Source of the DNA: a virus
Virus genome (UHGV): UHGV-0176895
DNA length: 34,472 nucleotides
Direction: 5' to 3' (one strand)
Positions 3,524 to 4,215 of the stretch are shown here, piece after piece. The notes below the pieces were generated by a model. The model had not been told where the DNA came from. It searched no databases and worked only from the letters and a program-made list of their open reading frames with translations. The position numbers were made by a program, and so were the translations under genes. Within the stretch, counting starts at the first letter, position 1, and each line of letters starts with the position of its first letter.

Positions 3524-4120
3524 TCAATTTGAAACTATTGTACTTCTTATACAAGCAACCACTTCAATATCAGAAAATGCACATTCAAAGCTATTCTCTG
3601 TAGTTGTAATTTTAATCATACCTTTTGGAAGCTTTGTGATTTTTCGAATGGAATAGGTTCCGTCGATGTTGATTAACCAGTGTCCATCAAGTACTTCAGA
3701 AAATTTTTGATCACAAATGTATGTGACAAGCCCATCCTGAATAACAATTGGTGATGAAAGATTTGCAGGAAGAAATGATGAATCGAATATATATGAACCA
3801 TCTTCAATCATTTTGCCTGCGGTAAGGCGAAACTTGGGAAGCTCTTCTGTGGCTACTGTCAGCGAGCTTTGCTTAAGTCCTTGCCCGGTGGTTAACCATT
3901 TCAGTGAGGTTCCTGTTTCAAGAGCACATTGGATTATCCAGTCTGCAGGAAACGTATCCCGCAAATACCTGTTCGCCAGAGTGCTTTTTGATACTTCCAA
4001 GTGATCAGCTAAAGCCTGTCGTGTCGTAAAGCCATAAGCTTCGACTAATCGCTCAATCGCAGCCTTACCACCTTTATTGGGATTTATTTTGATCTCACTT
4101 GGGTACTTTGATGTTGACAT
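3524..4120 (-). CDS. cI: Prophage immunity repressor (186 CI-type), 198 aa
   Basis: ATG at 4120. N-terminal HTH (FTTRQALADHLEVSKSTLANRY). Divergent from the apl/cII operon and adjacent to int, as in 186-like phages. Confidence 0.8.
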   Translation of the reverse strand: MSTSKYPSEIKINPNKGGKAAIERLVEAYGFTTRQALADHLEVSKSTLANRYLRDTFPADWIIQCALETGTSLKWLTTGQGLKQSSLTVATEELPKFRLTAGKMIEDGSYIFDSSFLPANLSSPIVIQDGLVTYICDQKFSEVLDGHWLINIDGTYSIRKITKLPKGMIKITTTENSFECAFSDIEVVACIRSTIVSN

Positions 4121-4142
4121 ATCTCTTTTGCGATCCTAGTAT
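4114..4142 (+). promoter_or_regulatory. Candidate lytic promoter pR: -35 TTGACA (4114..4119), 17-bp spacer, -10 TAGTAT (4137..4142)
   Basis: Consensus -35 with good spacing, read directly. It overlaps the cI start codon and points toward apl/cII. Confidence 0.5.
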
Positions 4143-4215
4143 CAGTTTTGTCCCCATTTGGGTACTTGTCACGATTACTACAGGCTCACCACAAGCCAAT
4201 AGGAGATGTTGCATC

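What the first reader, a model, noticed from the sequence alone, without database searches (positions are those of the whole stretch)
4096..4169. Lysis-lysogeny switch region: consensus pR overlapping the cI start, flanked by direct repeats of TTGGGTACTT
A -35 TTGACA / 17-bp / -10 TAGTAT promoter points into apl-cII and overlaps the cI initiation codon. A 13-of-15-bp direct repeat (4096..4110 and 4155..4169) brackets it. These are candidate repressor operators or flanking sites, in the spirit of the 186 CI sites.
Basis: partly seen in the sequence, partly recalled or inferred. Interest (0 to 1): 0.35.

Follow-up and report, generated by a model that had tools for sequence, protein, structure and literature searches.

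The report
Repressor operators flanking prophage lytic promoter
The two copies of TTGGGTACTT are most likely halves of two 16-bp binding sites for this 186-like prophage's CI repressor, sitting either side of the early lytic promoter: an ordinary, though unmapped, immunity switch.

Summary
pR (TTGACA/17/TAGTAT, 4114-4142) overlaps the cI start codon, and TTGGGTACTT occurs exactly twice in 34 kb, 59 bp apart, on either side of pR. The quoted 15-mers match 12/15, not 13/15.

The operator reading is supported, but "direct repeat" is not the best unit. Each copy looks like the right half of a 16-bp 6-N4-6 dyad:
- O-right, 4150-4165, GTCCCC-ATTT-GGGTAC, at about +1 to +16 of pR.
- O-left, 4091-4106, GATCTC-ACTT-GGGTAC, upstream of -35, inside cI codons 5-10.

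Evidence:
- Among 42 distinct related switches, O-right varies mainly at the mirror positions 3 and 14.
- Some relatives carry the perfect palindrome GTACCCAATTGGGTAC, which resembles the 186 pR operator TCTCTC-AATT-GGGAGA.
- Synonymous change is almost absent in cI codons 1-17.
- Phages with a near-identical apl but a different cI lose the motif exactly at 4169/4170.
- A CI relative about 50% identical has sites at identical offsets.

CI carries both 186 CI domains. I found no convincing distal FL/FR-type site. The spacing (59 bp, possibly 29+30 with a weak middle site) differs from the roughly 20-bp phasing in 186. No binding has been shown. This is a new member of a known kind, of low to moderate interest.

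The parts
3524..4120 (-). cI immunity repressor gene (198 aa), 186 CI type
   Evidence: ORF. PF07022 (E=8e-32) and PF16452 (E=1.5e-27). 33% identity to 186 CI. PDB 2FJR at E=5.8e-27.
4114..4142 (+). pR early lytic promoter: -35 TTGACA 4114-4119, 17-nt spacer, -10 TAGTAT 4137-4142. Inferred start near 4149-4150.
   Evidence: The hexamers are largely conserved in 42 related switches. It sits at the same place as the annotated 186 pR relative to cI.
4150..4165 (.). O-right: 16-bp dyad GTCCCC-ATTT-GGGTAC. Predicted main CI operator over pR +1..+16.
   Evidence: It is the only 12/12 match to GTNCCCANNTGGGNAC in the window and the only match to the perfect palindrome with 3 mismatches or fewer, against 0.03 expected. 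Conservation is mirror-symmetric, and relatives carry the perfect palindrome.
4091..4106 (.). O-left: GATCTC-ACTT-GGGTAC, upstream of -35 inside cI codons 5-10. Contains most of the left copy of the repeat. Predicted second CI operator with one divergent half-site.
   Evidence: It is the second-best dyad match in the window, 10/12. Only the central base varies, in 19 of 42 sequences. Synonymous sites are frozen. Relative L110 has a site at the same offset from -35.
4120..4135 (.). Possible O-mid: TATCTC-TTTT-GCGATC, filling the -35/-10 spacer. Weak and speculative. It overlaps the cI Shine-Dalgarno sequence on the minus strand.
   Evidence: It scores 8/10 against a degenerate dyad derived after the fact, which is not significant alone. 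The spacer is conserved. L110 and L111 have a clear third site at exactly this offset. Against: heteroimmune L125 has almost the same spacer.
4087..4108 (+). Left copy of the direct repeat (22 nt; exact core 4099-4108)
4146..4167 (+). Right copy of the direct repeat (22 nt, 18/22 to the left copy; exact core 4158-4167)
4070..4120 (-). cI codons 1-17 with almost no synonymous variation, showing a non-coding constraint overlapping the coding sequence
   Evidence: 0-3 minority synonymous codons per codon here, against typically 15-30 of 46 in codons 18-60.
4169..4170 (.). Right-hand boundary of the immunity-specific module. Heteroimmune phages share DNA only from 4170 (TCACGATTA...) rightwards.
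4206..4234 (-). Predicted pL lysogenic promoter, convergent with pR: -35 TTGAAA (4234-4229), 17-nt spacer, -10 CAACAT (4211-4206)
   Evidence: Its offset from the apl ATG matches the annotated 186 pL. The apl wobble positions 4230 and 4233 are invariant. It falls below the threshold of the promoter scan.
4216..4437 (+). apl/cox-like first gene of the lytic operon (73 aa)
   Evidence: ORF. Annotated as Cox, regulator or Cox-like excisionase in related phages. Only a weak helix-turn-helix (HTH) match to 186 Apl. No Pfam hit.
4470..4979 (+). cII
   Evidence: PF06892, E=1.7e-42

Best explanation
The two repeats belong to two operators for the prophage's own 186-type CI repressor.

Each operator is a 16-bp dyad of two 6-bp half-sites separated by 4 bp, with consensus GTnCCC-wwTT-GGGnAC.
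- O-right (4150-4165) covers the pR start region.
- O-left (4091-4106) lies just upstream of the -35 hexamer, inside the first codons of cI.
- Their centres are 59 bp apart.
- A weak third site may fill the -35/-10 spacer, which would give 29+30 bp spacing.

Inferred mechanism:
1. CI dimers, held together by the 186-type C-terminal oligomerisation domain, occupy both sites cooperatively.
2. The promoter DNA between them is wrapped or bridged, which shuts off pR.
3. By analogy with 186, this relieves transcriptional interference on the convergent pL that makes cI.

Shown here: the sequence anatomy, its conservation pattern, its linkage to cI, and the family membership of CI. Inferred: binding, cooperativity, wrapping and the effect on pL.
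For: 1. Dyad matches. O-right is the only 12/12 match to the dyad in 34 kb. O-left is the only 10/12 match, and it lies 59 bp away. The perfect palindrome with 3 mismatches or fewer is expected 0.03 times and found once.
2. Symmetric conservation. In 42 distinct related switches, variation in O-right is concentrated at the mirror positions 3 and 14 (12 and 20 of 42), with 5 at the central position 8. The ten specified half-site positions vary in 3 or fewer. Three of the four half-sites share GTnCCCA.
3. Perfect palindrome in relatives. Phage vB_EcoM-813R9 and 8 IMG/VR loci carry GTACCCAATTGGGTAC.
4. Resemblance to 186. The annotated 186 pR operator region contains TCTCTC-AATT-GGGAGA, with the same 6-N4-6 geometry and the same inner CyC/GrG bases.
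5. Frozen synonymous sites. cI codons 1-17 are almost free of synonymous change, while codons 18-60 vary in about 40% of sequences.
6. Linkage to cI. Klebsiella and E. coli phages whose apl-cII DNA is about 97% identical but whose cI differs lose homology exactly at 4169/4170. They carry other repeats (TGTGA) at the corresponding places around their pR.
7. Same architecture in a distant relative. L110 and L111 (CI about 50% identical) have GTACCCAnnTGTGAAC-type sites at exactly the same offsets from -35, plus one in the spacer. Xenorhabdus relatives have GATCTC-N5-GAGATC sites 61 bp apart.
8. CI family. CI carries both 186 CI domains.
9. Literature. 186 CI binds inverted repeats at pR and wraps DNA on a 14-mer wheel (PMC3675496; PMC1904268).
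Against: - There is no binding or expression data for this repressor.
- The left half of O-left (GATCTC) departs from GTnCCC. As a strict palindrome O-left has only 4 of 8 pairs.
- Its conservation could partly reflect other constraints: coding, translation initiation, or an UP element.
- The frozen synonymous region extends to codon 17, beyond O-left, which the operator alone does not explain.
- The recognition helix (VSKSTLANRY) is nearly identical in relatives whose predicted half-sites differ. The half-site assignments are therefore not secure.
- The 59-bp (or 29+30) spacing does not match the two-turn phasing of the three 186 operators.
- The degenerate dyad that joins all the sites was defined after seeing them.
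Confidence: 0.72

Rival explanations
1. P2-type recognition. The two TTGGGTACTT copies are non-palindromic direct-repeat half-sites, each bound head-to-tail by one repressor subunit, as for the C repressors of P2, W-phi and P2 Hy dis.
For: The repeats have the same orientation and bracket the promoter. P2-like C repressors use two direct repeats that flank -10 or -35 (PMC1904268, PMC2995052). In L110 and L111 all three sites are asymmetric and point the same way. The flanking CTT is conserved after both copies.
Against: CI here is a 198-aa 186-type protein, not a roughly 100-aa C protein. Known P2-type spacings are 22-34 bp, not 59 (PMC1904268). O-right is a dyad with mirror-symmetric conservation, and relatives carry perfect palindromes.
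Confidence: 0.1
2. The similarity has no repressor function. O-left would be conserved because it lies in the first codons of cI and in the UP-element position of pR. O-right would be conserved as part of the initial transcribed region. The shared 10-mer would be coincidence or an old duplication.
For: The repeat alone reaches only about p=0.017 locally, and close repeats are generally over-represented in this window. Frozen synonymous sites extend beyond O-left to codon 17. The -35/-10 spacer is also conserved, even in heteroimmune L125.
Against: This does not explain the mirror-symmetric variation in O-right, the perfect-palindrome variants, the loss of the motif exactly at the cI-linked module boundary, or equivalent sites at identical offsets in CI relatives with other sequences. 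The 7 bases between -10 and O-right vary freely (mean 7.9 of 42), so the region is not simply young.
Confidence: 0.1
3. The repeats are binding sites for the Apl/Cox-like excisionase-regulator encoded just downstream.
For: Apl and Cox proteins bind direct repeats between pR and pL in 186 and P2 (bioRxiv 10.1101/784983). The right copy lies between pR and the predicted pL.
Against: Apl sites are 6-bp repeats spaced 10-11 bp apart, and at least three adjacent sites are needed (10.1101/784983). Here there are two copies 59 bp apart. No copy lies near the int/att end of the prophage. Phages with about 97% identical apl DNA lack the motif.
Confidence: 0.03
4. The O-right palindrome acts as an RNA hairpin at the 5' end of the pR transcript, or in the pL leader. 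The left copy is irrelevant.
For: GUCCCCAUUUGGGUAC can form a small hairpin of -4.7 kcal/mol. In Xenorhabdus relatives a longer palindrome at this place shows compensatory changes.
Against: Fold energies are no better than shuffles, with z between +0.7 and -1.0. Positions 3 and 14 vary without keeping a pair: T/G 20, T/T 9, C/T 7 of 42. In this group the flanks do not extend the palindrome.
Confidence: 0.03

Closest known systems
Coliphage 186 CI repressor and its operators at pR (A-type inverted repeat TCTCTC-AATT-GGGAGA)
   Same: - Same repressor family, covering both domains.
- Same gene order: int, cI, then convergent pR/pL, apl, cII.
- The operator is a 16-bp 6-N4-6 dyad with the same inner bases (CyC-wwtt-GrG).
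- The operators overlap pR and abut or enter the cI start.
   Different: - CI is only 33% identical.
- The outer half-site bases differ (GTn versus TCT).
- 186 has three operators about 20 bp apart spanning 56 bp, centred on the -35/-10 spacer (PMC3675496). Here there are two clear sites 59 bp apart that flank the promoter core, and at most a weak site in the spacer.
- O-left lies 12-29 nt inside the cI coding sequence.
- No FL/FR-type distal sites were found.
- A 558-aa extra gene separates cI from int.
Direct-repeat operators of the P2, W-phi and P2 Hy dis C repressors
   Same: Two same-orientation repeats bracket part of the early promoter of a P2-like phage with convergent promoters (PMC1904268, PMC2995052).
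   Different: The repressor family and size differ. The repeats there are 22-34 bp apart and non-palindromic. Here one site is a clear dyad and the spacing is 59 bp.
186 Apl and P2 Cox binding-site arrays
   Same: Direct repeats lie in the pR-pL interval of the same kind of switch (10.1101/784983).
   Different: Those are arrays of 5-7 sites of 6 bp at 10-11 bp spacing, and they also occur at attP. Neither property holds here, and the motif does not travel with apl.
Lambda CI OR1-OR3 operators
   Same: Multiple imperfect 16-17-bp dyads overlap a lytic promoter next to the repressor gene and are bound cooperatively.
   Different: The repressor fold and oligomer are unrelated. The lambda promoters are divergent rather than convergent. 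The lambda sites are adjacent (about 23-24 bp apart, from my own knowledge), not 59 bp apart.

Membership tests
186-type CI repressor / operator system | N-terminal Phage_CI_repr HTH domain | tested here: met
   PF07022, E=8.4e-32, residues 20-83. Aligns with 186 CI and 2FJR.
186-type CI repressor / operator system | C-terminal oligomerisation domain (Phage_CI_C, the 14-mer wheel domain of 2FKD) | tested here: met
   PF16452, E=1.5e-27, residues 94-190. 2FKD at E=9e-9. This shows sequence membership only.
186-type CI repressor / operator system | Formation of a heptamer-of-dimers wheel that wraps operator DNA | not testable with these tools
   Needs SEC-MALS, AFM or cryo-EM. Only monomer structure prediction is available here.
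186-type CI repressor / operator system | Operators are inverted repeats overlapping pR | tested here: met
   O-right has 6 of 8 palindromic pairs here and 8 of 8 in relatives, with symmetric conservation. O-left has one divergent half (4 of 8 pairs).
186-type CI repressor / operator system | Three strong operators two helical turns (about 20 bp) apart at pR | tested here: not met
   There are two clear sites with centres 59 bp apart. No dyad match lies at +20 or +40. A weak candidate lies at +29.
186-type CI repressor / operator system | Distal flanking operators (FL, FR) about 300 bp either side of pR | tested here: inconclusive
   No match of 9/12 or better to the dyad lies within 3300-5100 apart from the two pR sites. 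4437-4453 scores 8/10 but overlaps the predicted pE -10 and is shared with heteroimmune phages. In 186 FL and FR are a second sequence type, so a different motif could have been missed.
186-type CI repressor / operator system | Face-to-face pR and pL, with cI transcribed from pL through the operator region | tested here: inconclusive
   TTGAAA/17/CAACAT lies at the same offset from the apl ATG as the annotated 186 pL, and the synonymous sites under it are invariant. The promoter is weak, is not called by the scan, and there is no transcript data.
P2-type C repressor direct-repeat operators | A roughly 100-aa C-family repressor | tested here: not met
   CI is 198 aa and carries the 186 CI domains.
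P2-type C repressor direct-repeat operators | Two non-palindromic direct repeats of 8-10 bp, 22-34 bp centre to centre | tested here: not met
   The spacing is 59 bp, and the right copy sits in a dyad (PMC1904268).
Apl/Cox (RDF) binding-site array | Three or more adjacent direct repeats at 10-11 bp spacing | tested here: not met
   There are only two copies, 59 bp apart (10.1101/784983).
Apl/Cox (RDF) binding-site array | The same motif present at the attachment site, and co-inherited with apl | tested here: not met
   No copy lies in 1-3400, even at 3 mismatches or fewer in the 13-mer. Phages with about 97% identical apl lack it.

The most novel reading that the evidence does not exclude
This branch of the 186 CI family, including L110/L111 and the Xenorhabdus prophages, may use a different operator geometry from 186. 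It would have 16-17-bp dyads fixed at about -52 and +8 of pR, 59-61 bp apart, with a third site about 29-30 bp from each in some members. The 186 arrangement is three sites at two-turn phasing. If the spacing mirrors the protein, the C-terminal domain (CTD) oligomer presents its DNA-binding domains with a different pitch, or has a different number of dimers, than the 186 14-mer wheel. Alternatively it may clamp the promoter from both sides rather than sitting on it.
Probability: 0.15. Interest if true: 0.45.

Novelty: new member of a known kind. Interest (0 to 1): 0.22.

Why it matters
This immunity type is common. The same switch is found in 173 of 5,426 complete E. coli genomes and in Klebsiella, Citrobacter, Raoultella and other Enterobacteriaceae. 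I found no mapped operators for it in the searched literature.

A predicted operator consensus gives a concrete way to define this immunity class, to predict cross-immunity between prophages, and to design reporter or binding tests.

The comparison with 186 also gives natural variants of operator spacing for a repressor family whose wheel-and-wrap mechanism has been studied in a single phage.

Otherwise this is what one expects at the switch of a 186-like prophage.

Tried and rejected
- **FL/FR-like distal sites.** I scanned with the strict dyad, the perfect palindrome and a degenerate dyad at N4 and N5 spacing. Nothing convincing lies within about 700 bp.
- **3829-3843 (AACTTGGGAAGCT) as an FL candidate.** It sits at the FL-equivalent distance and pairs as an inverted repeat with 4478-4489 (I5). 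Its codons vary freely at synonymous sites (codons 93-97), so I rejected it.
- **4437-4453.** It sits where 186 has FR. It scores only 8/10, overlaps a predicted pE -10 and is shared with heteroimmune phages.
- **A roughly 20-bp periodic YTTTG** (4087, 4106, 4126, 4146), which is what extends the repeat to 22 nt. The third and fourth copies are not conserved in relatives. I rejected it as a feature, so the TTTTG part of the 18/22 repeat is probably fortuitous.
- **Exact 12-mer AAGCCTGTCGTG** at 4012 and 4510 (D7). Synonymous sites under the cI copy vary, so it is chance.
- **RNA structure** of the pR and pL leaders and of each repeat. No signal.
- **Apl sites.** I could not identify them. There is no clear 10-11-bp repeat array in 4166-4215.
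- **Literature.** I tried to read Dodd & Egan 2002 (PMC2941640) for the exact 186 operator sequences, but it is not held. The supplement of PMC3675496 is not held either. The 186 flanking operators at pR therefore could not be compared base by base.

Full report
**Context**

The window carries a P2/186-like (Peduoviridae) prophage end. The genes, are:
- integrase, 691-1743 (-);
- an extra 558-aa gene, 1827-3503 (-);
- cI, 3524-4120 (-);
- a 73-aa apl/cox-like gene, 4216-4437 (+);
- cII, 4470-4979 (+).

CI has both domains of the coliphage 186 repressor (PF07022 and PF16452). It is 33% identical to 186 CI over 172 residues. It matches the 186 CI structure 2FJR at E=5.8e-27. CII matches PF06892.

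The whole switch is 95-97% identical to Klebsiella phage KP12 and Escherichia phage vB_EcoM-813R9. It occurs in 173 of 5,426 complete E. coli genomes.

**Checking the observation**

- The only sigma-70-like site in 3400-5100 is TTGACA (4114-4119), a 17-nt spacer and TAGTAT (4137-4142) on the + strand.
- The cI start codon is the complement of 4118-4120. It therefore overlaps the -35 hexamer.
- TTGGGTACTT is exact at 4099-4108 and 4158-4167. With up to one mismatch, on either strand, it occurs nowhere else in the window.
The similarity instead extends leftwards, to 18 of 22 (4087-4108 versus 4146-4167).
- An exact repeat of 10 nt or more arises in 1.7% of shuffles of 4060-4215. The window has 10 such close repeats against 2.8 expected.

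The repeat alone is suggestive, not decisive.

**What the repeats are part of**

The right copy sits inside GTCCCCATTTGGGTAC (4150-4165), an imperfect palindrome.
- In phage 813R9 the two differences from the window make it the perfect palindrome GTACCCAATTGGGTAC. Eight IMG/VR loci carry the same sequence.
- Scoring the 12 specified positions of GTNCCCANNTGGGNAC across the window gives one 12/12 site (4150-4165) and one 10/12 site (4091-4106, GATCTCACTTGGGTAC). Shuffled windows give about 1.3 sites at 10/12 or better.
- The perfect palindrome with 3 mismatches or fewer is expected 0.03 times and found once.

O-left lies 7 bp upstream of the -35 hexamer, in cI codons 5-10. O-right begins 7 bp after the -10 hexamer, at about +1 to +16.

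**Comparative evidence**

I collected 38 genomic loci and 80 viral loci that encode relatives of this CI. Of these, 42 distinct switch sequences belong to the same type.

1. *O-right.* The ten half-site positions differ from the majority in 0-3 sequences. The mirror positions 3 and 14 differ in 12 and 20 sequences, and the centre in 5. The left half and the reverse-complemented right half give the same consensus, GTnCCCA.
2. *O-left.* Only the central base varies (19 of 42).
3. *Neutral divergence nearby.* The seven bases between -10 and O-right vary freely (mean 7.9 of 42). The region has therefore had time to diverge.
4. *Synonymous sites in cI.* Codons 1-17 show 0-3 minority codons. Codons 18-60 typically show 15-30 of 46. 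Something other than the protein constrains 4070-4120.
5. *Linkage to cI.*
   - Klebsiella phages such as 4LV2017 and ST11-OXA245phi3.1, and many E. coli prophages, share about 97% identical DNA from 4170 (TCACGATTA...) rightwards through apl and cII.
   - They have a different cI and lose homology exactly after the right repeat.
   - Around their own TTGACA promoter they carry TGTGA repeats instead.
6. *Same architecture in distant relatives.* L110 and L111, whose CI is about 50% identical, have GTACCCATCTGTGAAC and GTACCCAGATGTGAAC at exactly the same offsets from -35 as O-left and O-right. They also have CTTCCCATATGTGGAC in the spacer, giving centres 29 and 30 bp apart. Xenorhabdus and Photorhabdus relatives (46-49% identical) have GATCTC-N5-GAGATC-type sites 61 bp apart.

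The architecture is conserved while the sequence changes with the repressor. That is the signature of immunity operators.

**Comparison with 186**

The annotated 186 record places three CI sites across pR, from the cI start codon to just past -10. Its spacer holds TCTCTC-AATT-GGGAGA. This has the same 6-N4-6 geometry and the same inner bases as GTCCCC-ATTT-GGGTAC. The outer three bases differ.

From the literature:
- 186 CI recognises two types of inverted repeat (PMC1904268).
- Its three pR operators lie two turns apart and span 56 bp (PMC3675496).
- FL and FR lie about 300 bp away (PMC3675496).
- The protein is a heptamer of dimers on which DNA wraps (PMC3675496).

Here the two clear sites flank the promoter core rather than cover it.

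A third site, TATCTC-TTTT-GCGATC (4120-4135), is possible.
- For: it lies at the L110 middle-site offset, and its half-sites are conserved while its centre varies.
- Against: it scores only 8/10 on a consensus derived after the fact. Its left half is also the cI Shine-Dalgarno sequence. A heteroimmune phage has almost the same spacer.

I found no FL/FR-like site.

**Predicted pL**

TTGAAA (4234-4229), a 17-nt spacer and CAACAT (4211-4206) on the minus strand lie at the same offset from the apl ATG as the annotated 186 pL. The apl wobble positions under the -35 are invariant. pR and pL would then start about 50 bp apart, and O-right would lie in the overlap.

**Mechanism**

The inferred mechanism is as follows.
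1. CI dimers joined through the 186-type C-terminal domain bind O-right and O-left together.
2. They hold the pR core between them.
3. O-right blocks the start site. O-left covers the UP-element position and adds cooperativity.
4. Silencing pR would relieve interference on pL, as in 186.

Binding, cooperativity, wrapping and the effect on pL are all inferred.

**Caveats**

- The left half of O-left (GATCTC) differs from GTnCCC. It does match the half-site seen in the Xenorhabdus group.
- The recognition helix is nearly identical in groups whose predicted half-sites differ. The exact specificity rules are therefore unclear.
- The frozen synonymous sites reach codon 17, beyond O-left.

**Rivals**

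- *P2-type direct-repeat recognition.* This is unlikely. The protein family, the 59-bp spacing and the symmetry of O-right all argue against it (PMC1904268).
- *Apl/Cox sites.* Effectively excluded. Those need three or more repeats at 10-11 bp (10.1101/784983). There is no copy near the att end. The motif does not travel with apl.
- *An RNA hairpin.* Not supported. Fold z-scores run from +0.7 to -1.0, and positions 3 and 14 vary without preserving a pair.
- *Conservation for other reasons plus coincidence.* This cannot explain the symmetric variation, the module boundary or the equivalent sites in relatives.

**Verdict**

The operator interpretation is probably right in substance, but it is better stated as two (perhaps three) 186-like dyad operators bracketing pR. 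It is a new member of a known kind. It is useful for defining a common immunity class and mildly interesting for its different operator spacing, but it is not surprising.

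Noticed in passing
window 636-650 and 655-669: An exact 15-bp direct repeat, AAAACAATAAGTTAG, occurs twice 19 bp apart. It lies between a host TetR-like gene (20-586) and the end of int. GGTGGTCAGTGGTGGT follows at 672-687 and resembles the 186-type Int arm consensus. These are probably attL arm, IHF or RDF sites.
   Followed up: no
window 1827-3503 (-): A 558-aa gene with DUF4041 and T5orf172/MUG113 (GIY-YIG-like) domains is inserted between int and cI. 186 has nothing there. Related phages annotate it as 'chromosome segregation ATPase'. It is possibly a prophage-borne accessory or defence gene.
   Followed up: no
L088 (IMG/VR), about 335 bp from its pR; also L112, L004, L005, L124, L125: Several heteroimmune relatives encode a longer CI with two tandem HTH domains. 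In L088 the second HTH part is 74% identical to this window's CI. The near-perfect dyad GTTCCCAATTGGGGAC survives inside the coding sequence between the two domains, where it could act as a distal, FL-like site.
   Followed up: partly
L013-L041 (Xenorhabdus/Photorhabdus prophages), just downstream of their pR -10: The operator dyad there is embedded in a roughly 35-bp extended palindrome with compensatory changes. Eight of 14 pairs change on both sides. 86.6% of cells are paired, against 27-50% when the partners are slid. None of 500 shuffles reaches this. It is either an RNA hairpin at the 5' end of the lytic transcript or a longer DNA palindrome. The window's own group has no equivalent.
   Followed up: partly
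window 1261-1276 (inside int): GTTCTCCAGTGGGTTC is one of only three 10/10 matches in the window to the degenerate dyad GWNCYC-N4-GRGNWC. The other two are O-left and O-right, and 0.53 matches are expected. The pattern was defined after the fact. It lies 2.9 kb from pR, and its conservation could not be checked with the loci held.
   Followed up: partly
window 4437-4453: GTTCCATTTTGGGATAC starts on the last base of the apl stop codon (TAG 4435-4437) and ends 17 bp before cII, where 186 has its FR operator. It resembles the dyad weakly (8/10). It is conserved even in heteroimmune phages and overlaps a likely pE -10 (CAAAAT on the minus strand).
   Followed up: partly
window 4058-4090: Synonymous sites stay almost invariant in cI codons 11-17 and 20-21, beyond O-left. 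No motif explains this. Possible causes are translation-initiation constraints, an extra weak CI contact (TTGGG at 4077-4081, 22 bp left of the O-left copy), or an upstream promoter element.
   Followed up: no
window 4169/4170: A sharp mosaic junction. 44 of the 46 phage records that match, and many E. coli prophages, share apl-cII DNA only from TCACGATTA (4170) rightwards. This marks a recurrent recombination point at the right edge of the immunity module.
   Followed up: yes
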